The notes below the pieces were generated by a model, which searched no databases, had not been told where the DNA came from, and worked only from the letters and a program-made list of their open reading frames with translations. DNA of 64,000 nucleotides from Microbotryum violaceum. Taxonomy: Eukaryota. The stretch lies in contig CDLV01000006.1 of assembly GCA_001244265.2 (NCBI GenBank), positions 1,922,001 through 1,986,000 on the forward strand. The letters run 5' to 3'. Below, in pieces: positions 14,052-57,000 of the stretch (position 1 is its first letter; the number at the start of each line of letters is the position of its first letter). The translations under genes and the position numbers were made by a program.

Positions 14052-17000
14052 ATGAGCACCTCACCTTCGTCGTCCAAGAAGCCCCGCCTCGACGCGCCGC
14101 CCGTGACCTCAGCCTCGAACGGCTCTCTTCCCCTCGTAGCCAATCCAGCCAACGGTTTCATCCCCGACGAAGACGTTGCTGCCCCACCTTCGACCCAAGC
14201 TGGTGCCCATGCCAAGCCTTTGTCGGCCTTGTTCGCGGGCGCGCATCCGGCGAGAGGGCTGTCGCAGCTCAAATCGGCTGTTCAGAATGGCGTCAAGGGC
14301 AAGGCGAGGAACGACAACGACGATGATAAGGTGAACTTTGAGAGTATCCTCAAGGGACTGAATGAGGAAGGTCAGTTGGTGAGCTTGGTATTCTTGAGGG
14401 GCACTATTCCGCAAGACTTTGCATCGGACGATTGGGATACCCCCCGTCTGCCGTCTGCTTGGTGGTACATGGCGACACGAGCCAGCAAGCGAGTGCCGCA
14501 GATTCGAGGCCTCTACACCAGAAACTATTTCCTGTTCATTTTCACCGACGCTCTTATCTCAATTGGGCGGGTTCCAGAGGCAGCGAGCCCGCGCGGCTGG
14601 AGAAAACCTTTAAATCTTCGGCTTCCGATCGAGCCTCGTAACTGACTGCTGCGTTCTCTCACGCAACCTCGATTACATGTTTTCGCAGTGGCAACGGACT
14701 CGAGTGATCAGAAATGGAATCGACCGGCACTGCCTCCGATCGACCCAGACACCGATGCTCTGAGTTCGTCCTTTGAGCTCTGCAAATTGTGTCCAATCCG
14801 CCCACCCGAGCTGACTCATCGACCCCGAATCGGATCACAGTTTTCCAGCAGATCGAGCTCGAAGAACACGTGGTGCCCGGAACGGTCCCGCAGATTCGTG
14901 CATTTGGTGTGACGCAGGTACGTCGTCGTACGCTCCCACCAAAATCGTATCCGCTAGAGCTCATCACTACGAGATGACCACGAGCAGGCTGGGCATTCCG
15001 TGTTGCTGCATATTACGGGCTTCATGCCTTACTTTTGGATTGCTGCGCCAAAGGGCTTTGTGAATGACCACTGTGTCTCGTTGATGGGTCACCTCAATGT
15101 AAGTCCTTTGCCCGACCATGCGTATGTTTTCGGACGCTCAACTCGAGCAAGATTCAATAGGCCATGATCCCAGGTGACGCGAACCCCGTTCACTCGATCA
15201 AAGTCGCACACAAGCGCTCTTTGTGGGGATACAAGGGTGATGGCACCGTGCCCTTCATCAAGATCACCATCAGCGACCTGCGAGCGTACCCCAAAGTCCG
15301 AGGCGCGTTCGAGCGTGGCGAGGTCAACTTTCGGGAACTGTTCACGGGTGAAGCGGTGATGACCTACGAGAGCAACATTGCTTACACGTTGCGGTTCATG
15401 ATTGATCATGGGGTACTTCACCTGTCCCGAGGCCTGTTGTCTCGTTAATGCGAGCTGACAATGCTCGTATGCAATCACAGATTGTCGGGATGAACTGGCT
15501 CGAGCTGCCGCCGGGGACATATCAGATGAAGCGACTGAGCGAAAAGGTGTCAAACTGCCAGCTCGAACTCGAGATCAAGTCAGCCTGCAGATCAACCTTG
15601 CAAAATTGAGATCTCATACTCACGCAGATCCCCTCTTTGTCAGGCACGACGATCTAATCTCGCACGCACCGGAAGGTGGATGGTCTCACATTGCTCCTCT
15701 GCGCGTTCTGTCCTTCGATATCGAGTGCGCCGGTCGCAAAGGTATCTTCCCCGAGGCCGAAATCGATCCCGTCATTCAGATTGCCAACATGGTCACGCGC
15801 CAAGGCGAGACCAAGCCTTTCATTCGCAACGTCTTCACTCTTAACACGTGTTCGCACATTGTCGGCACGGACGTGATCGAGTTCGAGAAGGAGGCCGATC
15901 TATTGACGAGGTGGCGCGAGTTTGTTGACGAGGTCGATCCCGACCTTATCATCGGGTACAACATCTCGCAATTCGATCTGCCTTACCTCATGGATCGAGC
16001 CAAGGTGTTGAAAGCGACCAAGTTCCCTTACCTCGGTCGACTCAAGAACGTCAAGAGCGATGTTAAGGACACCCACTTTTCGTCAAAGGCGTACGGCAAC
16101 CGAGACAACAAAGAGACAACGATCGATGGTCGACTGCAGCTCGATATCCTGCAGGTCATGCAGCGTGACTACAAATTGCGAAGTTATACGCTCAACTCGG
16201 TGTGCGCTCATTTCCTCGGTCAGTTGTTATCTGCGGGTGCAGATGTCTTTGGATGAGCTTGGAGGATCCTGACCGAATTTCCTTCATGTCCCAGGCGAGC
16301 AAAAGGAGGATGTGCACCATTCGATCATCACGGACTTGCAGAACGGTAACGCCGAGTCTCGACGTCGTCTGGCCGTGTATTGTCTCAAGGTGCGCATGTA
16401 TTCCACTGGAAACGAGAAGCTGGCCATCGGAACTGACGCCCTCTCGCACCAGGATGCCTACCTGCCGCAACGAATCATGGACAAGCTAATGTGCTTCATC
16501 AATTACATCGAGATGGCTCGTGTGACGGGAATTCCTTTCAACTACCTTTTGTCGCGTGGTCAACAAATCAAAGTCATTTCGCAACTCTTCCGCAAGGCCC
16601 AGGACACGAACTACCTCGTCCCGGCGTTCCGTTCCGAAGGCTCGGACGAGCAGTACGAAGGTGCGACCGTCATTGAACCCGAAAAGGGCTATTACGATGT
16701 GCCAATCGCGACCCTCGATTTTGCTTCGCTGTACCCTTCGATCATGCAAGCGCACAACCTGTGCTACACCACCTTGCTGGATGCCAAAATCGCCGAGGCG
16801 CTTAACCTCAAGGAGGGCGTCGACTACGTCAGGACCCCCAACAACGGTCGGTCGTCCCTAATCCGCCCGATTTTTCTCCCCAGATACTGACGATCTCAAC
16901 GCCTTCTGCTAGATCTCTTCGTCAAGTCCGAGAAGCGTCGTGGGCTGCTCCCCATCATTCTCGAGGACCTGCTGTCGGCGCGGAAGCGCGCCCGGGCCGA

Positions 17001-18505
17001 GTTGAAGAAGGAGACGGACCCGTTCAAACGTGCTGTGTTGGACGGTCGTCAATTGGCGTTGAAAGTCAGTGCCAATTCGGTGTACGGCTTCACGGGAGCG
17101 ACGGTCGGCAAATTGCCTTGCTTGCAGATCTCGATGAGCGTCACCGCGTACGGGCGACAGATGATTGAAAGGACGAAGCAGGAGGTGCAGGATCGGTACA
17201 ACACCGCGAATGGCTACGAGTACGATGCGACCGTCATCTATGGTGATACCGATTCCGTCATGGTTCGTTTCGGGTGTCCGGACTTGGAGACAGCAATGAA
17301 ACTAGGTGATTTGTGTTTGAACGAGCCTCCGAAGCTATGCAGAACATCTTCTGAAGTGATTGTTAAACCCTCATGACTCTAGGCGCAGAGGCCGCCGATT
17401 TTGTCACACAAAAGTTCGTCAAGCCGATCAAGCTCGAGTTCGAAAAGGTCTACTTCCCATACCTCCTCATTAGCAAAAAGCGCTACGCCGGCCTGTACTG
17501 GACCAAGCCGGAAAAGTACGACAAGATGGATACGAAAGGTATTGAGACCGTTCGTCGTGACAACTGTCGTCTCGTCGTGACCGTCATTGAAACATGTCTC
17601 AAGAAGATGCTCATCGATCGAGACGTCAAGGGAGCGGAGGAGTACACGAAGCAGACGATCTCGGACCTTCTGCAGAACAAAGTCGATCTTTCGCAACTCG
17701 TCATCACCAAAGCACTCGCCAAGGCCGATTACGCCAACAAACAGGCTCACGTCGAGCTCGCGGAACGCATGAGGAAGCGTGATGCCGGATCGGCCCCGGC
17801 GTTAGGAGATCGAGTCGCGTACGTGATTATCAAGGGGACCAAGGACGCTCGCGCGTACGAGAAATCCGAGGACCCACTGTACGTGCTCGAGAACAATATC
17901 CCGATCGACACCAAGTACTACCTCGACAACCAACTGTCCAAGCCGTTGATGCGTATTTTTGAACCGATTCTGGGGGAGAAAGCGAGCTCGTTGTTGACCG
18001 GTGATCATACTCGCATCGTGTCGATCGTGGCACCGACGTCGGGTGGGTTAATGAAATTTGCTGTACGCACGATGACGTGTCTGGGGTGCAAGACGCCGCT
18101 CAAACCGAATCGACCGAGTGAGTCAGGAACGAAAGTGGCGTTACCTCGACGTGCCCCTCCCCTGATCCTTGCTCCCGAACGCCCTCCTTCAGACAAAGCC
18201 GTCTGCGAAAACTGCGCGCCTCGCACGGCCGAGCTGTATGCCAAACAGTTGAACATCACCACCGCGCACGAGACCGCCTATGCACGCTTGTGGACGCAAT
18301 GCCAACGTTGTCAAGGGTCTCTGGTCCAGGATGTGCTCTGCACAAGTAAGGATTGCCCCATCTTTTACATGCGCAAAAAGGCACAAAAGGATGTGGCGGA
18401 GAACGTTTCCGTACTTGATCGATGTGAGTACCTCTTCTATGGGTTTGGAACAGCAGCAGTTGATCCTCTTTTGACCTTGTCGTCACAGTCGATGGTACTT
18501 GGTAG
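14052..18505 (+). CDS. POL3: DNA polymerase delta catalytic subunit
   Basis: SFDIEC exonuclease motif, [30 protein letters not shown], and C-terminal CysA/CysB clusters (CLGC..CENC; CQRC..CTSKDC). Ends DRFDGTW*. Confidence 0.98.
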
Positions 18506-18792
18506 AATTGGCATTCGCAAAAAGCGTGGATTATGTTTCCGAAGTCCTCTCCGACGCCGCCTCACTTTACGAGCTTGCTGTAACTATATCGCATCGTTTT
18601 CATCGATTATCCGCACAGGAAGAGAGTGCACTTATCTTCCCAACATGAAGAAGGTCAATGAGATACACCATGATCGTAGATATTTCATTATACTTTACAA
18701 CATGTCGTCACGTTTCTTCACATTAGACCGTGAACATCATTTCAAAACGGGGCGCTGGCACGGCGATGGTCATTGCCAGTGTGGGCAAAGGG

Positions 18793-21700
18793 CTAAAGAG
18801 CCGCAGATACCGCATCTCCAGTTGCGCCTTGACCGCTTCCGTAACCCAGTAGAGGAGTAGTTGTCGTCGTTGTCCCCCTCTTGTTCCGCGGCGGCAGAGG
18901 CACGGCTTCCATATCGGGCAGATCGCCAAACAAGTCCTCGAGATCCTGTTCTGCCGTTCGCGAGGTTGATGATGGCACACAATTAGAGCTCTCCCTCTTG
19001 TCAGTACTCCTCCCTTCCCTTTGACTCGATCCTTCCGCCCCAGTACTAGGTCCCTCCCTTCCCACCGCCCTCTCCCTGTCCTTGACACTCGATCGGACCG
19101 CTTCGAGCAACTGCTCCCCTCTCGCAACGTACATCTCCAAACGGGTCACATGTTCCCTCGATGCCAGCAGGTCAGCTTCCAGTGAATCTTGGAACGTCGT
19201 CAAATCCCTCAGAGACAAGGCGTGCAAAGGGGTGTCGAGCGCCGAGGCGTGCGAACGGGTGTGCGTGTGTGGCCGAGCGGGAGCGAGGTGATGGTGGTGA
19301 GGGTGCGCGATCGTGTGTGAATGAGCATGGGCGTAGCTATGCTTGTAGGCGTGGCGGGCATGAGCATGGAGATGGGAGGTCAACGCAGCAGCCGGATGGG
19401 TGGCGAGAGGAATGGTCGACGTCGAAGGGGACGGCGTAGCCGTTTCGGCTCGATCCGCCGGCGGAGCCAAGAAGGAGGCAGCAGCGACAAGATCAGGAAG
19501 ACTGTGCCCCAGTGGACTGTTGGCCGTTATCGCCACTGACATCGCGGTATCCTCCGATCCATCTTCGCTCACGCCGCTGCCGAACAAGGTTTCTCCGTTC
19601 ACCGTGTTCGGGGAGGAAAGCCGCGGCTTTTGCTTCGTCGTCTTGCGACGTTTCGGGGCCGGAGGGATCGATTTCTCTTCGACTTGGGGTTTGTCTCCAT
19701 CCACATTGACATTGCCTGCCATGTTTCCCACTCGATTTGGCTGCAAGATCACATAACCGAGCTGCAATCTCAGCAATGCGATCCCTTTCAAGTCTGACAG
19801 AGCCAATGTGGGAAGAAGATCAACACTTACAATGGGTACGCGGCGCCTGCGTTTGATGGTCGTTTTCTTCAGCAAGACTGGTCTTTGTGTCCCGTGTAAC
19901 TTGTAGTAGAGGCCTGACCGGAGGTGCGCCGCGAATGTCGAGGTTCGGCGATCGAGAGCGGATAGCGCACACGAGTTAGATGAAGGCGGCCGGATTGTAA
20001 GGAACAAGACGAAGAGGTCAGCTTTATTTGGTCCACGTGGCCTTGCAACGCCAGAGTTGAGGAACGACGAAGGCGAATGCATCGGCGGTGCGGCGCAAGG
20101 CGAAAGCGAGAGGAAAGTTCGGGGACTGATTGCGGCTCGTCGCGACGGCCCGCCGCGAAACTAGCGCATTCGCGCAGCTGGCGCACCACTTGCGACCTCG
20201 TCGCTCGGGGCCCGCTGCATCCTTCCCTCCCACCACTCCCGCCGATGCAACATCACCCATGGTAGACACGCCGCTGAACGTGGCCAGGGAACGATAAACC
20301 CACCACATGCGTTGCAAGCCACTCGGCCTTCCCCATCTCGTCTCCAAAGCGGCGTCGTTCCTGGATGATCAATAGAACCGAGACAAGGTGTACGGTCAAC
20401 TCCACAGTTCGATCGTGTAGGCATATCACATGCATCGCCACTGACGAGTTTGACAGTTGAAACACTCCATCGCGGTGACTTCCCCACTTGATTCGACCCC
20501 GTTCATTGAGCTCTCTTCGCCTGTATTCGCCGGTGCGGTGGTGTGGATGTGCGCCAAAGTTGAGGACGTCGCAGACTTGCTCGAATGCATCACACGATTG
20601 TTGAACGTGGGGCATCCTTGGCAGCACGACTGCCCACCCGAGCCGTTGCAGACTCCCCCTCCCGGGCATGAACCCGACAGAGGATCGTGGGTAGCCGTCG
20701 CTGACGTGGAAGCCCTGAGCGCTCGAGCGGACGAGGAGGTTGTCGTAGCAGTGGAAGGTCGAGACGACTTGCCCGGTGCCGAGTGAGGGGAGTGGGGAAC
20801 CAAAGGGGAGCCTATCCCCGAGTCGTCAGTGGGCAGCGATCCCGTCGCCGCCCCTGGAGAGGGAGGAGCTCGTAGCACCGAGGCCTGGGTGGAGGGTGAT
20901 CCGACTGCTGATATAGATGCGTTAGATGTAACGCTTGCTAAAGTCGGCCTCGAAGAATCACCCGCGTGAATTTCTGCAGATTCTGCGCCGGAGGGTCGAG
21001 GTCCGGCTCGGGATTTGAGGTAGAGTCCTGGCGTGTGCAACGCGGAGATACGTCAGGGTGTGCAACATTGGACTCCACGAACCAGAGGAAGAAATGAGAA
21101 CATACCGCAGGCGTTACAAATTGGGTTGCCATCCTGGTCTCGCCTCCAGAGAGGGGTCTGGGTCGTTCCGCAAATGAAGCAATCATTTCCCGTCTTTGTG
21201 CTGGGCGTTGCCAAAGTAGCCGAGGCGCTTGAGATGTTGAAAGCCCTCGACGAGCGTTGCCGATGCAGCGGATGAGGCGCTGTGGTCGCCGGTTGTGTCA
21301 GAATGGCCTCGGTCGACGTTGGTGGGCGAATCGCCGAATGTTCGATCGACGACTTGGGCGAGGCTTGCGTCGGCGCGTGCTGATGTGGCGTGTTTGCCAA
21401 TTCGACACCGGGTGAGGTCCTTGGAGATTCCGGACTCCAGCGTGGCGAAACGTCCGTCGTCGAAGTGGACGATTGTGAAGGCGAGGCCCCTTTTGCCCGC
21501 GCTTGATGATGATGGGTCGTCGCATCGCGAGCAGCACCGCTTGCGCCGTTCGTCCACGAGCTGAGCGAAGGTAGCGCAAAGGGTGACTTGGAGCGCACGG
21601 TCAAGGGGACTCGATCGTGTCTTGGCTCAGACGAAGGCGTTGCCCGGCTTGATCTTGCAGTACTACTGCTTCTGCCCGTGAGACCGGCCGCGTCCGCGCT

Positions 21701-21799
21701 CGAGGTAATGCCCGATGAAATCGCACCCTCGTCGCTCGAGCACGGGCGTGAGTCGCCGTGGCGGGAGGCAGGACCCAACAGATTCTGCAGCGACGTCAT
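18793..21799 (-). CDS. sreA: Iron-responsive GATA transcription factor, SreA/Urbs1/Fep1 type
   Basis: Two GATA fingers (CFIC..TPLWRR..CNAC; CFNC..TPLWRR..CNAC|GLYYKLH) separated by the Cys-rich [20 protein letters not shown] region. His-rich tract and coiled coil at the C-terminus. Start codon is inferred. Confidence 0.9.
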
Positions 21800-22399
21800 G
21801 ACGACGTCTGGCACGCCTGGGACTGTCCACAAGTTTGTAGAGGAGATGTGCGTCGTGCGAGACAAGAGTGAACTGAGGGCTTCTTGCCCCCGCGACTGAT
21901 GCAGCAGGCGATCAGTTGCGCCGTGTTCTCGGGTAGGCACGCCGATTGTTCAAGCGACCGCCAACCCGGACGCTCGGAGTTGGTGAAAGAGCTACAAAAC
22001 AGTTCATGTACATCTCCCACCTTTGTGTTGATACATAACCTCGCTCGGGAGCCTATCCCTGGGGTGAAAATCGCACTCGTGGTACAGCGAGGCGTCGCAA
22101 GCGAAATTCATGCATCGTCCGTCGTGACCAATCAACGCGTTCCTAATTCACCGCCCTCGGCGCAATTTCAAATCCGTGTTGAGTGCGTCAGCCCGTCGGC
22201 TTCGACAGCTCGAGGCTCAGCAGTCATCGGAAAATACTTCGGCGCGTTCTGGACATTTCATGCCCATCTCCTGTCTCTGTATATGCCCCACATCTCAATG
22301 CTATCCAAACGGTCGGCGTTGCATGATGCACTACACCGACGCCTGCTCTGACAACACGGCCATTAGAGCGCAAGGGAGCTCTTTTTGCGACCCCTCCGA

Positions 22400-24132
22400 T
22401 CACTCCTTCTTGTTCGCCTTGGCCGCCTCGCGCTCCCTCTTGCGTAGCACACGTTTGCGGATGTCGATATGCAATCGGCGGTTGTATCCGAGCCAGAATG
22501 AACGCGTCATGAGGTTATCGACGACCCACTTCGAAAGGGAGAAACAAGATGCATCCGAGATCGTCAGCGCCAGGGGTCGAAAGTGCTCGGCCCAGAGAGC
22601 CACCTACTTGAACGGGGGCATGACCGTGGTAAGGCGTCGAGATGTGAGGCTGCCCAACAGCCCCACCATTGACACCGATATGTGATAAGGCCGATCCTGT
22701 AAAGAGTGGAGAGTAAACACGAAGAACTCTTAGATTCAGATATTTATCCACCGTCGACGGTTGCGCAGAAATTCGGTCGACTTACGAACATAGGTGCTGG
22801 GAGTGGGGATCATCCAAGAGCTCTTACGAATCTTGCTCAACTTAGACGTCTGTGCAAAGAAGAAGGTTTCGCTATCAAGTCCAGGTCTCTTTGATTCGAT
22901 TCGGCCGCTTGACCCTGCACTCACGATGAAGTAGGCGTTGAGAAGCTCGACCTCGACACCCGTTCCCTTCAACTCGCTTCCGAGAGCTTGCGACCAGGTC
23001 GAAACGAAAGCCTTGCTTGCCGAGTAGACGGCTAACAAGGGAGAAGGCACGAGACCGGCGAACGAGCCTACGGTCAAGATCAGCCCGCGCCTGCGGGAGA
23101 TCATCCCGGGCAGCACCAGCTTGGTCGTCTTGAGGGTCGCATTGCTGGGAATGATAGATCGGCCCAAGCAGTCAGTTTTCGTGGACGTTCATGATTGAAC
23201 GATCTAAAGGAGCGAAGTACGCACATGTTGATCTCGATGATGTCGGCCGAATCTTGATCGGGCAGATCTTGGAAGAACATGGGTTCGTCGTAGCTCTTGC
23301 CCACGTTGTTGACTGCAGGGACACACACAAGTCGGCCTCGGTCCAGAGCTGTGTACTTTCCGCCGGGTTTACGCACTCAGGACACCGACTTCAAGCGATT
23401 CGAGAGCGTTGCCGAAAGCCTTGTAGTCCTCGGACGAAGCCGAAGCAAAGTCGATTGAGTGAACCTGGGTCTTGATCGAGGGGAACTTGGAGGCTACAGG
23501 CAATCAATTGAGACATATGAGCCGGCTTTTCATGCATGGTGATGGGATGTCGACACTACTCACTGATCTCTTGGCTGATCTCTTCGAGCTTGGAAGCCGT
23601 CCTCGAAGCGAGGAAGACGTTGAAGCCAGCAGCGGCCAATTGGAGCGCAAAGTCGCGTCCGATCCCGGCGGTCGCACCGGTGACAACTGTGCATAAATGA
23701 GAGACGTCAGTGCCGATAAGCCGATCAGAAGAAGAGCGCCTGGATCGCTTACCTGCCCACGCCCCTTTCTTGGCTCCGAAACGGGTAAGCTGGATCGAGT
23801 GTGGGGTGACGAGTGACGCGCGAGGCGTGACGCTTCAGGGTGGAGCTCTGCTGTGGTGCATGCGGGGTACACGTGGACGTACGGGAAGTCCAGGACGGGA
23901 AATATCGACGATCATGCGCACAAAGCTGAGGGCATAGCTTCCTAGCCACGCAGCTCCAACGAGCGCAAAAAAGAAGGTCGTCAAGGTGCACTCGTTGGCT
24001 GATGAGTGGACGATGACCCCAAGCGCCAAGGTGAGAAGTCAGGGTCAGACCGAGCGTCCTCTGCGGGAGCTCGTGAAGGAGGAGTTGCTCACCCCATCCT
24101 AGAGCGGTCGCTCGTGCGGCATCGAGAACCAT
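22400..24132 (-). CDS. IFA38: Very-long-chain 3-oxoacyl-CoA reductase (SDR family)
   Basis: N-terminal TM segment, [27 protein letters not shown] catalytic Yxxx[12 protein letters not shown], and LHIDIRKR...KKE*. Confidence 0.9.
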
Positions 24133-24749
24133 GGCGAGCGAAGCGTATCGAGTGCGATGCAGAGTGTCGGAGCAAAAGCAGAGGCGACACTGAGCTCGAA
24201 GAAGGATATTGGGTTGCTGACCGAATCACCGATCGAGCCAAGGCTCTCGACTCCCACGATTTTTGACGGACAGTAGTACTGTTCTTTGCCGTAGCAAAGT
24301 TAGGTCTCAAAGGAAAGAGTAGAGGATTTTCCTATACCTTGAGATGAAATTGCCAATCTAGACCCAGAACACGGCACCCACAGGCGCACACTGGCTGCTA
24401 GTGCCGTGAGGACGGGCGGCCCCGAAACCAGAAACCACGACAGGCCGGGCTGTGGCAGCTGAATCATCCAAGGTCCACTCGTCTGAATACCGAGTCACGG
24501 ATATAATTTCCAGTACGAGACCTTGAGCACTCACAAATTCGGTCTCCAAATCCACAGTGGTGCAATTTTCTCATTCGTCCCCATGTTTTCGATCGCAATC
24601 TTGTCAATTTAAACTTCGCTGAGCACCCGCTGGCACAGACTGGCCCACCCGGCACGTGCGGGTTTCTCCCCTCCGATTTATCTCGCAGCTCGCCTCCGTC
24701 CCTCTCGCCTCGAAACCTACTTTACACTCAGGCAAGCGCCACAAACCCA

Positions 24750-25855
24750 ATGTCAAGCCGTTCGTCGACCGATCTGTCAACGGTCATTCAGTTCGCCTGC
24801 ACGGCCGACGAAGAAGGTGCTGTCCCTTTTCCCTTCTGTCAGCTCGCGGACAACTCGGCCGATCTGCACGTTCAACCCGTGCACGTGACACTCAGAGACA
24901 TTCGACCGTCCTTGCAAGCGGGACAGAGGCCTACGCTGGATGTACAAGGATTCGAAGTCATTGATCACGTGTATGCCGGGTTGCAAGAAGATATCGATGA
25001 CGTTTGGATGGCCGAGTACGAACGACAGATGGAGCGCGTGAGTGAGGTTCATCCACGTAGAACTTGAACTCATCAACGCAGCAGCGATGTCCGTCCGCAA
25101 GTTCCGCAACTGAGCATGCGGTCCGACCTCGAACATGCAGCTTCTATGCCAGCACCTCAAGGCTCGCAGGGTGGTCTCCTTTGCCGGGGTCGCCGTCCGT
25201 CGTCGTAACCCCGAGCTCGATGACGCGCCTATCGATACGGAGAACCTGCAGCCCTCCGCTGGGGCCCACGTCGACGGCAACACCCAGACCGGCCGCGAGG
25301 TGTGCATCAAGGTGTTGGAACTGAGCGATGAAGACGCCGATACTGAACGATACGCCGTGATCAACTTGTGGAGACCGCTCCGAGGACCTTTGATAGACGC
25401 CCCTCTCGCGCTCTGTGACACTCGCACGACGGGGTCCGCAGACATTATCCCGACTCTAGACTTTTATGGACCAGGGAGCTACATCAAATTTTCCGGTTAG
25501 TGCTCCCCCTAGCCTGCCCGCATTCGATGGGTCCTTCCATCTGATCACTGACACTTCAGCTCGCCACGATTATCCCACGCTCGCCCGCGCCGAACAGATC
25601 GGCAGCAGTGGTATTACCTCCGTGACATGATGCCCTACGAGGCACTGCTATTCCGTTGCCAAGACAGCACGAGGCGTGAGTGCCCGTGCGGCCACGTTTG
25701 AGCCACACGGTCGAGCTGAACATCTGAGAAAGGAGACCGCCTCCACAGATCCGGACAAGGGAGGCATCACACCCCACACCGGAGTATGGGATGAAGAGCG
25801 ACGCAATGACTCGTACCGGCAATCCATCGAGGTCCGGTGTGCGGTTCTGTACTGA
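24750..25855 (+). CDS. AsaB/CmcJ-like hydroxylase/desaturase family protein
   Basis: TLDVQGFEVI, AHVD, INLWRPLRGPLIDAPLALCD, WYYLRDM, TPHTG and RQSIEVRC motifs. Confidence 0.8.
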
Positions 25856-26421
25856 AACGTGGGTCGAAAGCCACCCGTCCACAAGCAATATGCTTATCAT
25901 CTCGCAAACCGGCATCCGCATCCATCTGTGACATTGATATTCTCTCGTTTGCGATCTCGCCTGCGAACCTCGTATGTTTACTTGTCTGATTGTGATTGGT
26001 CGGATCATTGCGCCTCCGTGTATGAGAGGATAATTTCGCGAAACACCACAAAAATATAAAAACTGAGACCGTTTTTTGCGCTACGTCAGTACAAAATACT
26101 ACCCCGAGCCAAGCCGTGCCATACGCGTAGATGAAAGCAACGCATTCTTTTTTGGTACTGATACTGACGAACCCCACAATGTCGGACCGCCGCCAACACA
26201 ATCGGCGCTTCGTCTTGCCCTCCTCCCCCGGGGGATCACCTAAAAACGAAAGGAAGCTGCACCTGCACCCACCCAACGTTCTGTTCCCGTGCAAAGCATC
26301 GTGTCCGGCGGCCCCTCGTCGACTGAATTCTGCCCGTATGATCCGACTCCCTGATCGCGTGTATTTCTGAAGATCGAGGGGGCGAATGACAAGTCACGAC
26401 AATTCGAGAGGGGCAGCAAGG

Positions 26422-28898
26422 CTATCGCTCCTGCAAGGCGGAGGCGGAGCTGACAGCGTCGAACGTGTACGCCGAGTACGCCAGGAAAGGCGAAGGGCCC
26501 GAGCCCGCTTGATCATCCATCTGGTCTAATTGAGCCGGACCCCGCACGTAGTCCTGCTGCTGCTGATGCGCGGAGCCGGAATATCTTTGAAAAGTCTGTG
26601 CCGGTTGGGGGTGCTCATATCTCGACGATTGGTACTGTTGCTGGTACTGCTGCTGAACTTGTTGCTCCTGTTGTCGCTGCTGCTTAACCTGTTGCTTCTG
26701 CTTGGCCACCGTTTGCCGGTGGGTTTTCGCTTCGTGCCGGGCCACAGCCTGCGCCTCTTGCTTCTCCACTTTCTTCTGAGCTCGTGCCCGCGAGGGTTTC
26801 GGCGTGAGCGTGTGCATCTTCCTATGATCGTCACGGGTAAAAGAAGGATGCCGCCACCCGGAATATTCGTGCGTCGAGGTGATGTCAAGTTTCGAGATGA
26901 GCTCCGACGGCGACAGGCGAGCGAAGCCGTAGACCTGTACGGCCGGAAAATCACCCGAATGCAACGTCAGTCACGGTTCCGATGAAACGGATGATAGAGC
27001 ATAGTAGACCGTCAACGCAACGACGCAGCAAGCGGTAAACGCCAGAGTAAGCGCGACAATACCTGGAGCGAGCCGAGCTGCGGAGAAAGCACGCCAAGCG
27101 TCCCGGGACCGACACCTCGGCGTATTGTGGACGGTCTTCACGCAGCTATTTCACTCACGTTGAGTTGCCGAGTAAACGCGTGCAGACTCGCATGCTGGTA
27201 GAAGCTGGGTAAGACCTCGGAGAGCAGCCTGGGTTGGGCGTGGCAGACGATGAACGAGGTGCCCGTATCACTGCGCAAGATAAACATTCGAGGAAAAAGA
27301 ATGCAATGTCAGTACTTGTCCAACGGCATTCCCGCAATCGCCGAAAAACTTCTATCGCCAATCGTCTCCACGAAAGCTTCAGGAAAGGCGGCAACCTAGC
27401 AATTAGGAGTTCAGGATCCCGAGGCCAGCGCCACGGTGCCTGACGATCACGCCTAGGTCGGAGCCGACGGCCGGGGCCAACGGAGGCGGAGTGGCGAGCG
27501 GAACACGGGGTCCAGAGAAGCGAACGGAAAATTGGAAACGGGAAACTCACTCCCAGACCATACAATCTTTGAAGCTGCACGGATGGGCGGCGATACGATA
27601 TAGGGGTACAAGGGCTTCGAGCGTCAGCGAGTGTGCTGCGGAACTCCGTACAGGCCTCCAGTGTCAGCGCTCGAGTGAAGACGGCTCACTATTCGGGATG
27701 GGACAGCAGATATTCGAGCTTTGCGATGAAAGGTTTCACGCGTGGGACAGATGCAGTAGGGTCGTTTGTGGCCTGCAAAATGCAGAACGATGCCGAGAAA
27801 CACGAGTCGAGCAAAAGGTCAGCGATATGCCCTCGAGTGGCTGACATCACCACCACGCTCGAGCACGGGTGTTCGCGCGTCGCGTCCAACACAGGAGGCG
27901 GAGGGCACAATGTCACATTGAAAAATGGCGTCGAGCCACCCCGTGTTGTTCGTGATGTTGCATGTCCAGCCTCGCGGGCGTGGTCTGCCGCTCGAGCATG
28001 CGCCGCCAAAGTCGTTCAAGCAATTCACCTTTGCGATTTCGAGCTGATTCGGCGAAACAAAGTCGGGTTCGAATGGCGACTGGGGTCCATCGCCGGACCA
28101 AGAAGACTCGACCAGGGAACCAGGAGGAGAAGCTAACGAGGACGCCGTGTTGGACATGCTCATCTCGAGCAAATCGCCAATGGTCATCTCGTTCTCGGAA
28201 CGTAGCGCGGTCGCGACGGCCGAACTCAACATTGCAGAGTTTCGACCTTGCGGGGTTTGTTGTAGCTGGAACGAGACCCTACGATCTGATGGGCCAGCCC
28301 TTGATGTATGTGGGTGCGGGCTGGTCTCGCCGACGCTCAAGCCCGGGTACGTCAAATCTTGCGGTTCGGAGCGTGGCTCGCCCGTGAGGGGATCCCAATT
28401 ATACCGACTCGATTCGACGGCATGGTACAGCTGGGCGTGGTGCGAGGTAAGTTGCGGTTGGTGCAACTGAACAAAGGACTTGTGAGGTGGGTCGAATGGG
28501 CCTTTCAACGTCGTCGTGGTCGAGAGGGCCGGCTGCGGAGGCCGAAAGTGTTTAGCCGGTGCCTCAACGTGGAGCTGCTGTGGCTGCTGTCCGCCGCCGA
28601 ACAGCGAGTGGACTTGTTGCCCGTACGCCAGAGACGGGCTGTAGCGAGGATCGAACGTGTCGCAGCTCCCCGAATACGAATGTCGTGGCTTCGAGGTGGC
28701 ACTGGTCGAAGTCGAGTCTACTTCCGAGGTCGAAGCGCCGGATGGCGTGGAAGACGAGGTTGTGAACGACGACGATGACGAGGCGCCCGGTGCCGCCACC
28801 GCCGCGTCCGGACCTTGGCGTTGTCGCGACTGTGAGTCGGTGTCGGCGGTCGACCTCTGTAAGCCAATGGAACCGTCATCACCACCTCCACCGGACAT
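26422..28898 (-). CDS. HSF-type DNA-binding domain transcription factor
   Basis: Spliced domain PFIAKLEYLLSHPE(Y)FKDCMVWD|DTGTSFIV...VLPSFYQHASLHAFTRQLN|VYGF...WRHPSFTR, with a Gln-rich C-terminus. Long introns 27773-28028, 27271-27550 and 26935-27158. Confidence 0.85.
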
Positions 28899-37707: not shown

Positions 37708-37710
37708 AGG

Positions 37711-41594: not shown

Positions 41595-43351
41595 TCATTT
41601 ACGGCCCGCAATCCATTCCTTGACGACGTCGGCGAACGAGACCATGCACACCGTCTGCCAGATGCCCAAGCCGATACGGGGCGTCACACCGCGGTAGAGA
41701 CCCTTGAGACCGTTCTCCTTGTAGATGTACGATAAGGTGTTAAGCACGGTTGCCTTGCCGGGTTGGCCTGCGCGCTTGCCCTTGGCCATGGATTGCATCT
41801 GAGGAGGTGGGGGTAGGAAGGTTGAATTGGCTAGCCCTCCTGTGGAGGCGTGGCCTTCAATGCAGGTGGACTCACCTCGACTCGTACGACTTCAATCGGT
41901 TGGTTCCAGCACCCCAAAGCACCACCAATGGTCGAAGCGGCGATACGGTCCATCGCTCCCAATCGTTCGCTCTCGGGCACACCACGCGCCTTGCGGATCG
42001 ATTGCTCGGCGAGACGAGCGAATCCCATGCTAATTGGTGAATTCGGCGAGGAAAGGGCAGAGTGTCAGTTGCGTCGTGATATGAAAGGGATGAGATGCAG
42101 TCGTCCCCAATCAGGTGAACTGACCGAGATCCCCAATTGGTCATCTGACGAAGCGCGACAGCGTTGACACCCTGGTTGATACGGCGGAGACCACCCTCAC
42201 GCCACATGTCACCAAAGAGCTTGAAGCTGTACAGCGCGGTAATCCAAGGACGGAACGTCAGCTTTGCATTGAGGGAGAAGAGGGGTTGAGAACGTACGTC
42301 GAAGGGGGCTTGACACCACCGGCGACGAGCTTACTCCTCGTGATCTCGGCCGTCTTCATGCACGTGCAGAAACCTATGAGCAGTATCAAATTTGTATGGC
42401 TAGGTCAGCAATGTGTGGGGGGAAATACCTGCTTGCTGCTTTCTCTGAAGCTTGACAACGCGTGAGAGCCACGAGAGCGAGAGTGGAAAGCAGGACTCAA
42501 CCCATGGTCGCATAAGCTTGGGCAACACCACCCCCCATACCACCTAGCAGTCCGGCCACACCGGGGGAGATGCCCGAGTTGACGGCAAAGCCTTCGATCT
42601 CGGCCGCGGTGAAGAGCAAGACGGCGCCTTTGGTCGAGGCTTCAATCCATGCCCAGGGAATCAGACCTTGGTAGACTGCGACGGACGGAAGGGAGGATGT
42701 GAGTGAAAGAGCGTTGCAAAGCATGGGTACTGTACGTGGCACTTACAGCCCAACACACCACCTCGACCCCACACCTTCCTGAGCGCCTGGCCCATGGTGT
42801 CGGTTCGCGCCGAGGCCATTTGGGTCTTGATCACTTCGAGCGGTTGGCCCAACGTCGTGACCTATTCCATTCGGATGCCCACATGGCATTCGGTGGTGAG
42901 GTTGTGGTGCACGAGGTGAAGACGATTCGATCGAGAGACGGAGCAATCGGCGGCCGTGATACGTGTCAGAGAGAGCGCGCGGCGCGGCGGAGTTTGAGAC
43001 GGAGAACGGAGGTGACGGGCAGCGCCGCGCCGGAGAAACAGCGATTGGAAAAGGAGAGGCGAATGAAACCAAGATTGTCAGTCAGCACTTGGACCGGACA
43101 AGAACCCGTTGTCAAGCTCGGCACTGACCTCGAACATGTTCATCACACCACCGACTGTGCAGCGTGAGCACGGCGCGGGGCGGGCGTTGGGAATCCATCC
43201 AGTCAGCTTCAAGTCAGCTCCGCGCCTGCGCGCTCCTCCCCAGCCGAGCACCAGCTGAGTCACACGAGGACTACTGACCAGCGATGTTGGACCAGGCGAT
43301 CGGTCGTCGTTCTCCCTTCTTGAGAGGGGCTTGAGCTGCCATAGGTGCCAT
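41595..43351 (-). CDS. YHM2: Mitochondrial citrate/oxoglutarate carrier
   Basis: [64 protein letters not shown] and [17 protein letters not shown]. Confidence 0.93.
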
Positions 43352-44033: not shown

Positions 44034-44905
44034 TTACCGCCTCAACAAGAGGTACACGTTTTCGCCGACGGTGACGTTGGAGACATGTCGGTAACTCCCC
44101 GACAAAGCCATCAAGAGACCACCGAACGAGGCGTAGGCCGTGACGCGTTCTTGCGTGTCTTGGTCGAATTTGTACACCTAGAGACGTCGGGAGGGAGAGG
44201 GGAGAGGGGTGAGGGATGAGAGTTGGAAAGGGGTGAGTTTTCCTGCCGGCGGAAGTTCCCGCTCTTGTGGGAATGCAATGCAATAAACCCGTTACTCGCC
44301 TTGCCATACATGACGTATTCCCACTCATCGGCAATTCCACCTTCGATCCCTGCCCTCCATCCTCCTGCGGTCTCCTTCTCCCCCTCGGGCAAGAGCGACG
44401 AGGTGAGCGCGAGCGTGAAGGTCGTTTGGGGCGTGATGGGAAGGAGATCGATGTTGACCTGTTTCAAGGGAGTGATCAGGAGAGTTGGCTGGCTCTAGAC
44501 GACCGCGAGAGATGGCCGAGGGGAGATTCTCACGTCGAGTGTCAGGTCCATGTCGTAGTTGGACGAACGAGCTGTCAGTCGCGAGACTGCGAGGGGGAAA
44601 GAATGGAACATGCCAGTGTCAGGCAGCGGAATCAGACCGGTTTCATCTTGTTATACGTACCACGATCAAACTTTTTGCCATCTATCGTTGACGATGAAGG
44701 CAATACGTGGGGGTAATGACGGGCGGTAGACGAAAAATACGTCGGCCATGATCGACGTCGCGAGTGAAGCCAACGAAAGTGAAGAGCGAACGTCAGCGCT
44801 GTGATGGACGTGTCGGTGTGATATGATAGCCTGCGTACCCCTGTCCACGTCGGTGGTGGTGAACATATCTTGGAAGAGAAACGCGGAGGTCTGCGACGAG
44901 CTCAT
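44034..44905 (-). CDS. RPB8: RNA polymerase I/II/III shared subunit RPABC3
   Basis: LFQDMFT..DVD, KFDRVSRL, MDLTLDVN, and ADEWEYVMYGK|VYKF...AYASFGGLLMAL. GC-AG intron at 44178-44299. Confidence 0.96.
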
Positions 44906-45148: not shown

Positions 45149-45152
45149 CTCT

Positions 45153-48142: not shown

Positions 48143-48537
48143 GGTCGTGGATGAATCCCGTCCGAGCCCTCCGGTGTGTAATCAGATCGGAAAGGACGCC
48201 GACAGGGCGGGAAGAGGCGCGATCGGCGCGACGCGACGCGTGGTGAGCGTTCTTTCATGACGCGCGTGTAAGAGTCGAGCTCGAATGCGAGATTTAGAAA
48301 TTCGAGCGATCATTTGCTCGGAGCCACCGAAAACACTCAAACCTTTGAGCTCCTATTACTCATCACCCACCCCGACCGAAAAGGACAGCCTTGTGAGCGG
48401 TGTCGCAGAGCACACCGGCTTCCTTGACTTGGAGGGTTCGAGTGTCGAGACAGCGGTCAACTTTGCTACAGAAACTTATACATGCCGTATTCTTACTGGC
48501 ACTCCGCAGCCCCGCCCTCTCATCCCGTTCGTCAACC

Positions 48538-48685
48538 ATGAGTTCGTCGCAGATCTCCGACTTTAGGCTCTTCCAGGACATATTCACCACCATGGACGGG
48601 GTCAGGTGTACGTACATCATTGGCAACCCTCGTTATCTCATCACAGCAGCCACCGCTTTCCCTTACTCTGCTTGGTCTCACTCGG
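48538..48685 (+). pseudogene. Decayed copy of RPB8 exon 1 plus part of intron 1
   Basis: MSSSQISDFRLFQDIFTTMD versus MSSSQTSAFLFQDMFTTTD. Nucleotide similarity continues into the intron (CATCACAGC...TCACTCG). Confidence 0.8.
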
Positions 48686-48699
48686 AGATTTTCCGATTG

Positions 48700-49309
48700 C
48701 GCCGAAACTTTACCCAACCAGGCTCTCCCGCGACATGTTCCGCGATCCCGCTTCCCCTGACTCTCCTTCTTGCCGCTTCCACCTCCATACTGTCTTCTTC
48801 GTCAGTTTCGGCTTGAGCCTCTGTCGCCCCTACTGCATTGGCGCCAAGGAACTTGTTTACCCACCATCGATACGGTCTGCAAGTCCCGTTTCTTGTGGTG
48901 AGCACAACCACCTCGCAAGGCAAATACTGGCTCTCGTTCCGCGTACGTGCATAATCACAGGGGTGCACATCCACAAGCTCGTTTCGATCGCTGCCCGGTC
49001 ATGCTCCTTCCGATACCCAAACCCGGTCTAAGGTTTGGCTTGTTTCGGCATTGTCGCCTCCGTTGACATCGGACAGAGCTGCTTGGGCTTGGTCCGAGGT
49101 CGAATGATGGTCAGGCTAGACAGGCCAGAAAGGGTAGAGCAGGAAAAGATGAATATGACTACTCCGAGAACGATTTGGCCCATGGTAGTGGGGTGGGTGG
49201 TAGGGCGGAGGGTAGGAACACGGCCGTCAAGGGAGCTCGATCTCGCAAGCGCTGTCGAGTACCATCAAGCAGGTCTGCGATTACGTCGGGCGCTGGGCGG
49301 CGGAGACAT
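48700..49309 (-). pseudogene. Decayed copy of the 45247-46141 gene
   Basis: ATGTCT start and patchy collinear matches (AGATCG..CTCC..CCTACCC; CTCTACCCTTTC = LYPF; AGCCTGACCATC), with stops and frameshifts. Confidence 0.55.
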
Positions 49310-50799
49310 GCCCGCACTACCCTAAAATGACCACAGGCCATGGTTTCCGCTTCTGTTACAGCCCCACTTCAAGAAAATCCCCAGTATAGAAAAGCGAAAA
49401 AACCCGATGCGCCTAAAAGCGATGTCAAATTCGATCGGCCCCGACTGCGGATGAACGCGGACGATTCCTTGGTACACAAAATATGCATTGGGTGTTGTCT
49501 CCGGCAGCATCAGTGAAACTTGAAGCTGCTTCCTTGGGAAAGGGGACGGGGGTAAGCTCAACTAAGCCCTCCTACCTCCACAGTGGAGGGTTTCGAGCTT
49601 AGGGTGGGGGGGGGGGGGGGGGGAATGTTGTCAAGATCCACCCTTTGCTTCGAAGCGTCCCTTCCCGCGGCTTGAAAGTGGTTTGCAGTCTTTTGCCCAT
49701 AACTTTCATCTTACTTTTGAGCACCTTCTGGAGCACCCTGTCGCTCTAATATTCGGACAGCACCTTGACCCGTAGCATCATTCGGCCCTCCGTACTTTAT
49801 CCCCGCGCTCGGCGGCATCACTTCCGCGCTGCATCCATGTTTTTCCCCGAGTGTCGAGTCTTGAGAAGACGGATGGCATAGCCCTTACAGCCCCTACGAA
49901 ACGAGAGGTCAAACCAAAATGAATAACACCGTCAACTGCGACACGACGGAAGGACGGAAAGATCTATCCATCTTGGAAATATCCGCGAATCACAAATGGC
50001 AGACAAAAAAAAGGTGAGACTCCTTTCGGTGGAATGGGAAAGATTCAATTCGACGCGAAGTCAAATTAGGTTGTGGATGTAAAGTTTGCAACTAGCAAAT
50101 GACCTAAGCTCGGTTATAAACCTCACTGCTATAGGTGCTTGCCCGAGCACAAGAATGCCCGAGACAAACCACGACGATTGATCGACAGTGCATAGGGACC
50201 AATTTTGGTAGCGCGCTTGTGGTGCTTTAACCTATGAATCTCGGTCGTTTTCTAGTGCTACCTTTGCAAGTTTGCACACCATCAGAGAGGAGGGTTCTTT
50301 TAGCTGTAAAAGGCGCTAAAACAACTTGGTCTACCTTGCACCTGCGGCATAGTCCTTTATAGTCCGGCCGATGCGACTGACTACAAAGGGCGCTGTTGTG
50401 TGGTGTACGTGTCCGGGTACAGTGACTATAAGTTGGGGCTTGCACTGACTTGTCTGAGTAGTCCTGCTGTACTTAAAAATGAGGCTATAATTGTGTCTTC
50501 GGGATTTAAACAGATATCTCATGCTTAAAGTGGTTGTGTATGTGTGCTTCTTTATGGATGCCTGCTTGCATGTATGCATTCGGACGCTTGCCAGTCGCTT
50601 GCCATGCTTTGACAGGGAGACGGACCGCGGAGCGTTACCACGTCACCGGCGGCGCAGCGGCGCGTCACGCTCTGGCTTCCCGCACCATTTCAAGACAGCG
50701 AACCCCACGAGCCGACGACGACCCCACCCACACTTCAGTCAAGAGGCGTAGAGGTCTCGGCACGGAACAAGAGAAGAGAGCGCATTCGAATAACCAACC

Positions 50800-54000: not shown

Positions 54001-57000
54001 ATGAGTTGGCAACCGCAGGCGCAGGGGCTCGACGAATTGCTGCAATGCCTGCGCAACTCGGGGTCACCCGATACCAAGGTTCAGGAGCAGATCCAAGCCG
54101 TGAGTCGCTGTGAGGACGGTGGCGTCGCTGGCGGTGGTGGTGGTGGTCGTAGTTGCTCGTCGTGGCGCGTGCGTGGTCGCGCATGTCGTGGTCTGGTCGG
54201 GCTGCCGCCTCACCGGCTGCTGCGAGCAAAAGAATCAAGGACCCGGCCCCCGGCCACCGGCCACCGACCACCGACCACCGGCCATCGACCACCTCCGCGG
54301 TTCTAGGTACCGTGGCACCCGCGCCCATGCCGGAACCGTACTGACCATTCCTTGGCTTTGCTTTCCCTTACAGCGCCTCGAGTCGTTCAATGAGGTGCCC
54401 GACTACAACTCGTATCTGGTCTTCATCCTGACCCAGCTCCCCGCGGAGGATATGACCGTGCGCTCCATGGCCGGTCTCTTGCTCAAGAACAACATCCGAC
54501 TGCGACTGGACGCGATCCCCGCCGACGTGTTGGCCTACGTCAAGGAGCACGTCTTCGAGGCCATCGCCGACCCGACCCCGATGATCCGCAACACCGTCTC
54601 GACCGTCGTCGACACGCTCCTCATCGGCCTCGGACCCCAGAACTGGCCTGAAGCGTTGGCGCAGTTGATGCAGCTCATCGAATCGACGGACCAGTATGCC
54701 CAGGAGGTGGGTCAGCACAAGTAGTTCTACCGGAAACAGTTCCATCACTGAATTAGTCCGCTCTCGTCGTCCGCAGGGCGCTTTCTCGGCCCTTGACAAA
54801 TTGTGCGAAGACATCCCGCGCCAGCTCGAGCAGATGGAGGTGCAGGGAAACAAGCCGCTCGAGTTCATGATCCCGAAATTTATCCAGCATATCGACGCGG
54901 GCAACCCCAAGATCCGCGCTTACGCCCTCTCCGCCGCGTCGCATTTCATCACGACCGAGAACAACGCGCTCTCGACCCACATCGTCAATTTTATCAACGC
55001 GCTCTTCCGCCACGCCTCGGACGACTCGACCGAGGTCAAGAAGCTCGTCTGCCAGGCCTTGGTCCAATTGCTCGCGAACCGGCCCGACAGTCTGATACCC
55101 CACATGCCCAACGTTGTCGACTTTATGCTCTACGCGACCCAGACGATCGAGGACGAGGAGGTTGCGCTCGAAGCGTGCGAGTTTTGGCTCACTTTTGCCG
55201 AGGACCCCGAACTCATCGAACACCTGCGACCCTTCTTGCCCCGCGTCATCCCCGTGCTCTTGTCGTGCATGGTCTACTCCGAGGACGACATCGCCATCTT
55301 GGACGGCGCCGAAGACGACGCCGCCGTGCCCGACAAGGCTGAAGACATCCGACCTCATCTCTTGTCGTCAAAGGCGCACACCAACGAGCGGATTGAGGGC
55401 CCCAACAGTACAGGGACATTGACGCCGCCGAGCAACAAACCGCGCGACGCACTGGACGACGACGACGAGGAGGATGAAAGTGATTACGAGGACGACGAGG
55501 ACGATGATCCATACACAGAGTGGAACTTGAGGAAATGCTCGGCCGCGGCTCTGGACGTGATGGCCGTCGCATTTGAGACCGAGATGCTCGAGATCCTGCT
55601 CCCCTACCTGAGGGAAAAGCTGTTTTCAACCGAATGGACCGATCGCGAATCCGCTATATTGGCCCTGGGCGCAATCGCGGAGGGATGCATCACCGGCATC
55701 GAGCAACACTTGCCCGTGTTGATGCCCTTGCTCATCAACTCGCTTAACGACCCGAAACCGCTCGTCAGGTCCATCACATGTTGGACAATAGGGCGGTATT
55801 CGAGCTGGACGATCAAGGAGGACGCCACACCCGAGCATAAGCAGCAGTTTTTTATTCCGGCCATGGAAGGCGTGAGTCCTACCGTATCATCGTGGTCTCG
55901 GATGTGCCAATACTCAGACTGACGTGGCTCCACTTTCTTCTCCTGTAGCTCCTGAAAATGTGTCTCGACAACAACAAGCGGGTACAAGAAGCGGGATGTT
56001 CGGCCTTTGCGACACTCGAAGAGGAAGCCGGACCCGAGCTCGAGCCGTACCTCGGCTCGATCCTCGGCAACCTCGTTTTCGCCTTCGAGAAATACCAGCA
56101 AAAGAACTTGTTGATCCTGTACGACGCGATTGGAACACTCGCCGACTCGGTGGCAGGTGCCTTGAATCGACCCGAACACGTCAACGTCCTGATGCCGCCG
56201 CTCATCCGGCGATGGCAGGACCTGAGCGACAACGACCCAGATCTGATCCCGCTACTCGAGTGCCTGTCCTCGGTCGTGATTGCAATCGGGCAAGGGTTCC
56301 TCAGCTACGCGCAACCTGTATTCGAACGCTGCATCGCCATCGTCAAACAGTCGTTGATCGATTTCGAGCAGTACAAGGCGAACCCGGCCCAGGTCGAGGA
56401 ACCGGACAAGACTTTCCTCATCGTTTCGCTCGATCTCTTATCGGGGCTGACCCAGGGTCTCAACACGGCCATCACCGAATTGTATCGATCGTCGGACCCG
56501 CCCGTCCTGTCTTTGCTCGCGATGTGTCTGCAGCACCCCGACCCGCCCGTGAGACAATCGTCGTATGCCCTCTTGGGCGATACCGCCATCTCATGTTTCC
56601 CGATCTTGCACCCCGTCTTGGCCCAGTTCATGCCGGGCGTGATCGCGAGCATCGACGTCGAACCGAGACCGGCCGAAGTGAGCGTATGCAACAATGCTGC
56701 TTGGGCAGCGGGTGAGATCGCCCTGCAGGCCGGAGCCGACATGAAGCCGTGGGTCCAGCCCTTGATGGAACGGATCGTACCCGTGCTCTTGTCGAATAGA
56801 TCGGCTCGAAGTCTGACGGAGAACTCGGCCGTCACGATCGGGAGGTTGGCGATCGTCTGCCCCGACCTCGTCGCACCTCACCTCGAAGTCTTCGTCAGTG
56901 CTTGGTGTCAAGCCTTGGCGGATATTAAGGACAACGAAGAGAAGGATTCGGCGTTCCGGGGGATCTGCGCCGCGATCCAGCTGAACCCGAATGGTATCTC

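What the first reader, a model, noticed from the sequence alone, without database searches (positions are those of the whole stretch)
14371..54373. Recurring pattern: long introns fold back to a short effective length
Seen: most introns here are about 50-100 nt, but those over ~200 nt carry nested complementary segments in the pre-mRNA sense. POL3 intron 14371-14688: GTTGGTGAG/TTCACCGAC, GGCACT/AGTGCC, GCGGGTTC/GAGCCCGC. HSF intron 27773-28028: CACGGGTG/CACCCGTG, with a stem closing just before GCTGAC. HSF intron 27271-27550: TCGCCA/TGGCGA, GACCTAG/CTAGGTT. HSF intron 26935-27158: AGACCGTC/GACGGTCT, ACAATAC/GTATTGT, GCCGAG/CTCGGC. Transportin intron 54100-54373: GGTGGT repeats against CCACCG repeats, and TTGCTCG/CGAGCAA. 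The SreA and YHM2 introns are listed separately. Established: intramolecular pairing shortens effective intron distance in some S. cerevisiae introns. Inference: a genome-wide structure-dependent intron-definition mechanism that could make splicing of regulators condition- or temperature-sensitive.
Basis: partly seen in the sequence, partly recalled or inferred. Interest (0 to 1): 0.7.

Follow-up and report, generated by a model that had tools for sequence, protein, structure and literature searches.

The report
Long fungal introns: mostly generic folding
The long introns of this anther-smut fungus are real, but any RNA of their length folds back equally short; only a borderline excess of yeast-type 'zipper' stems remains, while several other long introns appear to need no folding because their branch site sits near the intron start.

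Summary
The window is Microbotryum. The five cited introns are real single introns; no hidden micro-exons were found. 22 of 23 quoted motifs exist in the sense strand; the HSF 'CACGGGTG/CACCCGTG' pair is one site read on both strands. The main claim meets its own refutation test. Long introns fold no better than shuffles (mean z -0.17, n=8) or intergenic DNA (-0.13, n=50), and their folded 5'SS-branch distance (25-32 steps) equals controls. Only 4 of 11 cited stems reach pairing probability 0.5. A residue survives: 5 of 7 introns with a long 5'SS-branch distance (HSF x3, transportin, SreA; not POL3 or gene B) carry a yeast-type zipper stem in register with the splice signals. Post-hoc P is 0.004, rising to 0.047 when local composition is kept. 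No melting switch is predicted at 10-55 C, and the transportin hairpin is not kept in relatives. YHM2, RPB8 and gluconokinase introns instead have a likely branch site 46-56 nt from the start plus an AG-free tail. The scan noted both layouts before on other DNA of this genome.

The parts
14371..14688 (+). POL3 (DNA polymerase delta) intron 1, 318 nt; branch site 43 nt from the 3' end; no zipper stem; predicted 5'SS-branch-site pairing
   Evidence: depth; z -0.11
27773..28028 (-). HSF intron 1, 256 nt; best-folding intron (z -2.6), rod with arms about 27936-27978 and 27832-27895; covers an in-frame cryptic donor at 27845
27575..27689 (-).
   Evidence: spliced joint in three runs
27551..27574 (-). 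24-nt micro-exon in the HSF DNA-binding domain, between (not inside) the cited introns
27271..27550 (-). HSF intron 3, 280 nt; z +0.8; zipper arms about 27449-27536 and 27319-27403 when the splice signals are held open
26935..27158 (-). HSF intron 4, 224 nt; z -0.3; interrupted 19-bp zipper 27127-27149 with 26994-27016; last 126 nt AG-free
54100..54373 (+). Transportin intron 1, 274 nt, 67% GC; G-rich 5' half pairs with C-rich 3' half (arms about 54118-54161 and 54223-54296); mostly composition-driven
   Evidence: z -1.4; 73% of block shuffles also zip
19914..20303 (-). SreA/GATA long intron, 390 nt; 11-bp perfect stem; upstream branch candidate 104 nt from the 3' end with an AG-free tail
   Evidence: (depth)
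42862..43128 (-). YHM2-like carrier intron 2, 267 nt; branch consensus at nt 47/51, then no AG until the 3' splice site (distant-branch layout)
44682..44838 (-). RPB8 intron 1, 157 nt; branch consensus at nt 46, 111-nt AG-free tail, followed by a 21-nt micro-exon
12475..12594 (+). Gluconokinase intron 1, 120 nt; branch consensus at nt 56, 64-nt AG-free tail (just outside the finding's range)
   Evidence: (joint)
2532..2944 (+). 413-nt first intron of a coiled-coil gene, longest in the window, not cited; no zipper; not checked against RNA
   Evidence: (z +0.3)

Best explanation
The long introns are ordinary spliceosomal introns in a short-intron fungus whose usual 5'SS-to-branch distance is about 30-60 nt. 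Their short folded length is a generic property of any 200-400-nt RNA (shown). They do not share one mechanism. (a) Some, such as YHM2, RPB8, gluconokinase and partly SreA, keep a branch consensus near the 5' end or far from the 3' end and have an AG-free tail; the AG exclusion is shown, and branch use with scanning to the first AG is inferred. (b) Of the seven with a long 5'SS-branch distance, five have G-rich/C-rich or otherwise complementary arms that are predicted to close a yeast-type zipper stem in register with the splice signals. These most likely act as modest, constitutive splicing aids or hide cryptic donors (inferred), not as thermosensors. (c) POL3 and gene B splice with no special fold.
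For: Generic folding. Zipper in 5 of 7 against 8-36% of matched genomic windows (P 0.0035) and 9-27% of shuffles (P 0.0045). It holds in all five under 22 C, Turner 1999 and Andronescu parameters; without constraints 4 of 5 stay at >=0.96 and HSF intron 4 drops to 0.44. In register 5 of 7, against 5 of 42 frames shifted by 60 nt or more. Arm-to-arm duplex mean z -1.13 against 0.04 and 0.14 in 72 controls (rank test P 0.007-0.011). The HSF rod pairs the in-frame cryptic donor at 27845 with probability 0.99. AG-free tails begin within 10-15 nt of the branch consensus in YHM2, RPB8, gluconokinase and SreA. The two long transportin intron-1 orthologues among 7 close relatives (L001, L033) show the same distant-branch layout.
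Against: The zipper signal is post hoc (about ten measures tried; energy, distance and longest helix were null) and n is 7, three from one gene. With local composition kept, P is 0.047 for presence and 0.25 for stem energy, and 73% of transportin block shuffles also zip. Upstream and downstream gene flanks zip in 5 of 21 and 4 of 16 windows. SreA's signal depends on choosing the distal branch site (z -1.96 against +0.67). Long orthologous introns of other fungi show no excess (2 of 7). The transportin hairpin has no counterpart in relatives. No structure probing, lariat mapping or covariation data were available.
Confidence: 0.45

Rival explanations
1. All of the fold-back is a by-product. Long introns are mostly 5'-proximal, GC-rich and promoter-like DNA (regulatory elements, simple repeats), which is self-complementary by composition; folding plays no selected role in splicing.
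For: Long introns match upstream regions in GC (0.60 against 0.58) and CGCG/GCGC density (18.3 against 19.0 per kb; short introns 4.3). 8 of 23 first-listed introns exceed 110 nt against 8 of 81 others (a few first-listed are not true first introns). MFE z equals intergenic. Block shuffles absorb most of the zipper signal. Three of the five zippers also form on the antisense strand. No conservation in relatives.
Against: The zipper peaks at the true intron frame and is still P about 0.05 under the strictest null. In M. saponariae, 5-nt and 6-nt insertions appear to fall on opposite sides of the same internal loop of the HSF intron 4 stem (my reading of a predicted protein; weak). This rival does not account for the AG-free tails.
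Confidence: 0.4
2. One reading: every long intron in the genome is defined through folding, and this makes splicing of regulators temperature- or condition-sensitive.
For: All three long HSF introns and SreA have predicted zippers. Heat-sensitive splicing of structured branch-distant introns is reported in S. pombe (PMC9508853, passages).
Against: POL3, gene B and YHM2 do not fit (3 of 8). Effective distance equals controls. No predicted melting between 10 and 55 C. Housekeeping genes carry long introns too.
Confidence: 0.08
3. The long introns hide micro-exons, nested introns, snoRNAs or inverted-repeat transposon remnants.
For: Micro-exons do occur here (24 nt in HSF, 21 nt in RPB8), and the window holds inverted-repeat elements. 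An in-frame alternative donor in HSF intron 1 is used in one species' annotation.
Against: Spliced contigs and depth show single-step removal for HSF x3, POL3 and SreA. Conserved proteins are continuous across the junctions. Rfam finds nothing in these introns. No repeat homology within the window, and none of the 25 longest inverted repeats listed lies within one of the long introns (253 pairs found).
Confidence: 0.05

Closest known systems
Zipper stems of S. cerevisiae 5'L introns (RPS17B, RPS6B, APE2; Rogic 2008 PMC2536676, abstract and sections 3 and 14 read; Rangan 2025 PMC12350175, abstract and sections 9, 14 and 27 read)
   Same: [quoted passage not shown] Stems hiding cryptic splice sites are also described there.
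   Different: Intron-rich basidiomycete with 79-nt median introns and degenerate signals; prediction only. In yeast the 5'SS-branch distance is shorter than in controls and stems are conserved; here distance equals controls and conservation is unshown or absent.
Distant branch points with AG exclusion zones (Gooding 2006, PMC1431707, passages) and S. pombe branchpoint-distant exons (Anil 2022, PMC9508853, passages)
   Same: Branch consensus at the 5' end of an AG-free stretch of 64-220 nt ending at the 3' splice site.
   Different: Here the branch consensus sits at the normal short distance from the 5' splice site. Tails fold no better than shuffles, unlike the S. pombe and S. cerevisiae downstream stems; tails are far longer than the 20-40 nt in S. 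pombe.
Intrinsic end-to-end proximity of folded RNA (10.1101/2020.04.29.069203, passages)
   Same: Explains the short effective length of introns, shuffles and intergenic windows alike.
   Different: Does not explain registration of stems with splice signals, if that is real.

Membership tests
Zipper-stem (5'L) introns | 5'SS-to-branch distance about 200 nt or more | tested here: met
   191-387 nt in 7 of 8 long introns by branch consensus; YHM2 not (47 nt); branch sites not mapped experimentally
Zipper-stem (5'L) introns | Stem >=6 bp, >=10 nt from 5'SS, >=20 nt from branch site, linker 42-85 nt | tested here: met
   Predicted in 5 of 7 (HSF x3, transportin, SreA); not met for POL3 and gene B; my implementation of the published rule
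Zipper-stem (5'L) introns | Stems more stable or frequent than in controls | tested here: inconclusive
   Presence P 0.004, 0.047 with block shuffles; stem energy P 0.25; post hoc, n=7
Zipper-stem (5'L) introns | Folded 5'SS-branch distance shorter than in controls | tested here: not met
   25-32 steps against 28-32 in shuffles and 29-31 in genomic windows
Zipper-stem (5'L) introns | Stem conserved or covarying in close relatives | tested here: inconclusive
   No Microbotryum intron orthologues obtainable; transportin hairpin absent in 7 more distant relatives; indirect hints from two predicted proteins only
Zipper-stem (5'L) introns | Stem forms in vivo and is needed for efficient splicing | not testable with these tools
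   needs DMS probing and mutant reporters
Distant-branch-point / AG-exclusion introns | Long AG-free zone before the 3' splice site | tested here: met
   YHM2 224 nt (P 0.0004), RPB8 115, SreA 106 (P 0.03), gluconokinase 77; short-intron median 32, maximum 94
Distant-branch-point / AG-exclusion introns | Branch consensus at the 5' end of that zone, AGs normal upstream | tested here: met
   position lists; also L001 and L033. HSF intron 4 has a 126-nt zone but its consensus is 32 nt from the end, so not met there
Distant-branch-point / AG-exclusion introns | Lariat actually formed at the distant site | not testable with these tools
   YHM2 and SreA also have nearer candidates (104 and 62 nt from the end)
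RNA thermosensor introns | Structure opens within the physiological temperature range and changes splicing | tested here: not met
   Predicted zipper probability 0.83-1.0 at 10-55 C; prediction only, no condition-resolved RNA

The most novel reading that the evidence does not exclude
Microbotryum enforces a short 5'SS-to-branch span, and long introns obey it by two interchangeable routes: a splice-registered zipper stem built largely from G-rich/C-rich polarity, or a branch site kept near the 5' end with long-range scanning over an AG-free tail. The same orthologous intron (transportin intron 1) uses the zipper route here and the distant-branch route in relatives, and the HSF rod also gates an in-frame alternative donor that would add 61 residues next to the DNA-binding domain.
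Probability: 0.25. Interest if true: 0.6.

Novelty: new member of a known kind. Interest (0 to 1): 0.3.

Why it matters
If the zipper excess holds genome-wide, it would extend the budding-yeast zipper model to an intron-rich basidiomycete and help explain how a short-intron spliceosome tolerates the few long introns. With the distant-branch introns it would give a natural two-route comparison within one genome. As it stands the headline (short effective length) is generic, both layouts are known kinds, and the scan has noted stronger examples of each elsewhere in this genome, so the value is mainly a clear testable prediction.

Tried and rejected
No whole genome held, so no genome-wide test. 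A naive motif scan for introns was too noisy. Introns were curated by hand from a small gene parser; I left out uncertain introns (all of the transposon's, some in the hydrolase, PAQR, RAE1, VIP36, DPH7, ORC2 and two small genes) before the count of 104. No RNA holder was listed on record, but three laid runs showed spliced joints; only 12300-29300 was laid, and 32 joints were not shown. Those contigs are spliced, so they give no intron variants. Null measures: MFE z at 37 and 22 C, antisense z, ensemble distance, longest helix. Rod depth was high only for HSF intron 1 (z 3.6), but 3 of 50 intergenic windows also reached 2.6-3.5, and a fourth 2.58. Coding controls used 22 of 40 windows. Rfam: nothing in the long introns or in 13 orthologous loci. 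The metagenome scan gave 80 transportin loci, none close enough to align introns; 31 loci were splice-aligned to transportin, and 234 of 259 called introns (neighbouring genes included) were kept; three near-duplicates were dropped. Downstream stems in the AG-free tails: not better than shuffles. Variants inferred from read-through annotations (P0121: 2 changes, both unpaired; P0123: 4 changes outside the zipper helices, plus one likely break of an outer pair by my reading) are too few to decide. Literature: seven answered searches listed no paper on intron folding or branch distances in Microbotryum or Rhodotorula; only listings were seen for most, no supplements were read, and subscription journals are largely missing.
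Full report
Setting. The window is from the anther-smut genus Microbotryum: the large transportin exon is 99% identical to an M. silenes-dioicae protein, and the first HSF exon is 100% identical to an M. lychnidis-dioicae protein over 83% of the query. No genome is held, so everything rests on this window plus metagenome orthologues.

Are the introns real? Yes. All five cited intervals run GT to AG. Spliced contigs skip 26935-27158 and 27271-27550 whole and reveal an uncited 115-nt intron (27575-27689) and a 24-nt micro-exon between the cited introns. One contig's leftover length implies 27773-28028 is removed whole, and depth bins fit whole removal of POL3 14371-14688 and SreA 19914-20303 (my arithmetic). 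The resulting HSF protein has the same length and junctions as the annotated one. Transportin intron 1 is fixed by spliced alignment, and its position is kept across fungi. I curated 104 introns (uncertain ones left out): 83 are 50-100 nt, 8 are 111-200 nt and 8 are over 200 nt. The hidden micro-exon refutation does not apply to the dominant isoforms.

Are the cited stems special? 22 of 23 motifs are present in the sense strand; the HSF pair CACGGGTG/CACCCGTG is one site read on both strands. In the folding ensemble 4 of 11 cited stems reach probability 0.5 (both transportin stems 0.80 and 0.93, one HSF 0.62, one POL3 0.51), 3 are 0.43-0.48, and 4 are 0.16 or less. Shuffles of such introns contain 4-19 perfect 6-bp inverted repeats each. 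The total observed is in excess (120 against 81), but POL3 and two HSF introns are at expectation.

The headline claim meets its own refutation test. MFE z-scores against dinucleotide shuffles are POL3 -0.1, HSF -2.6, +0.8 and -0.3, transportin -1.4, SreA +0.8, YHM2 +1.2 and gene B +0.3; the mean is -0.17 with no length trend. Intergenic windows average -0.13, with 4 of 50 at or below -2.5, and coding windows -0.06. The folded 5'SS-to-branch distance is short, but no shorter than in shuffles, with signals free or held open (25-32 against 28-32 steps), or than in GC- and length-matched genomic windows. All 72 control windows fold to 52 steps or fewer. This is the known sequence-independent closeness of RNA ends (10.1101/2020.04.29.069203, passages).

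I applied the positional definition of yeast zipper stems (PMC12350175, sections read; origin in PMC2536676). [quoted passage not shown] With signals held single-stranded, 5 of 7 have a dominant zipper, against 8-36% of matched windows (P 0.0035). This is stable to energy models, and it peaks in the true frame (5 of 7 against 5 of 42 frames shifted 60 nt or more). In HSF intron 1 the rod buries an in-frame cryptic donor that one species' annotation uses.

Against that residue. It came after several null measures. n is 7, three from one gene. Keeping local composition gives P 0.047 for presence and 0.25 for energy, and 73% of transportin block shuffles also zip. Gene flanks zip in about a quarter of windows. 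SreA depends on the branch site chosen. POL3 and gene B have none. Long orthologous introns of other fungi show 2 of 7 and no energy excess beyond one of 15 at z below -2. Transportin intron 1 in seven close relatives is 79-164 nt with no folding excess in the three scored and no similarity to this intron. Long introns resemble promoter DNA in composition. Conservation evidence is indirect and weak: an M. saponariae gene model that reads through part of HSF intron 4 suggests both inner arms are kept and that 5- and 6-nt insertions face each other at one internal loop, but also one broken outer pair (my reading).

A second layout. Short introns have a 5'SS-to-branch distance of median 48 nt (5-95%: 30-61; n=42 with a strict consensus). 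YHM2 intron 2, RPB8 intron 1 and gluconokinase intron 1 keep exactly that spacing (47, 46 and 56 nt) and then run 220, 111 and 64 nt without an AG; SreA has a 104-nt tail of the same kind. The chance of the YHM2 tail under base shuffling is 0.0004. The tails fold no better than shuffles, which favours scanning over looping. The two long transportin intron-1 orthologues show the same layout. This matches distant branch points with AG exclusion zones (PMC1431707, passages) and S. pombe branch-distant introns (PMC9508853, passages). I noted it before looking at earlier scan notes, which report larger cases in this genome and one long hairpin intron (unchecked AI notes, not counted as evidence).

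Temperature. Predicted zipper probability stays 0.83-1.0 from 10 to 55 C, so no switch is predicted, and no condition-resolved RNA was available.

Verdict. Observation partly confirmed, interpretation partly supported. Shown: real long introns, generic short folded distance, AG-free tails starting at branch consensus sites. Inferred: use of those branch sites and a helper role for zipper stems in up to five introns (about 0.45). The by-product explanation is nearly as likely (0.40); the universal, temperature-sensitive model is unlikely (0.08). Both layouts are known kinds, and seven literature searches listed nothing on them in this genus. Interest 0.3.

Noticed in passing
window 50021-50156 (-): U4 spliceosomal snRNA gene (Rfam RF00015, 66 bits).
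   Followed up: no
window 27845 (-): In-frame alternative 5' splice site inside HSF intron 1; the 183-nt stretch is open and annotated as a 61-residue insert in M. silenes-dioicae but not in three other species; predicted fully paired in the rod.
   Followed up: partly
window about 29986-34688: Element with long terminal inverted repeats (about 490 nt in pieces, 96-100% complementary) around a spliced reading frame on the minus strand; probably a DNA transposon.
   Followed up: no
window 60899-61294 and 61736-62136; 11745-11978: Two further inverted-repeat structures (about 400-nt arms at 91-94%; 78-nt perfect arms), MITE-like.
   Followed up: no
window about 48504-48700 (+): Decayed inverted copy of the start of RPB8 (first exon and part of intron 1), upstream of ORC2.
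   Followed up: partly
window 1123, 8435, 8699, 44299, 53316: At least five GC-AG introns among 104 curated, by reading frame; not RNA-checked.
   Followed up: no
window 14371-14378 with the branch site near 14640-14647: The common donor GTCAG is the reverse complement of the branch consensus CTGAC, so folding programs pair the two signals; this lowers computed distances in real and shuffled introns alike.
   Followed up: partly
L001 10100-10263; L033 518-680: Transportin intron 1 of two relatives: branch consensus at nt 56 and 66, then AG-free pyrimidine-rich tails of 108 and 97 nt.
   Followed up: yes
L002 149-389; L074 10513-10950; L078 4835-5276; L068 10476-10757; L077 1385-1642: Transportin intron 2 is long (241-442 nt) in several other fungi while 70 nt here; no Rfam match, no folding excess.
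   Followed up: partly
window 26935-27158 (-): HSF intron 4 has no AG in its last 126 nt (P 0.005) although its branch consensus is 32 nt from the end; unexplained.
   Followed up: partly
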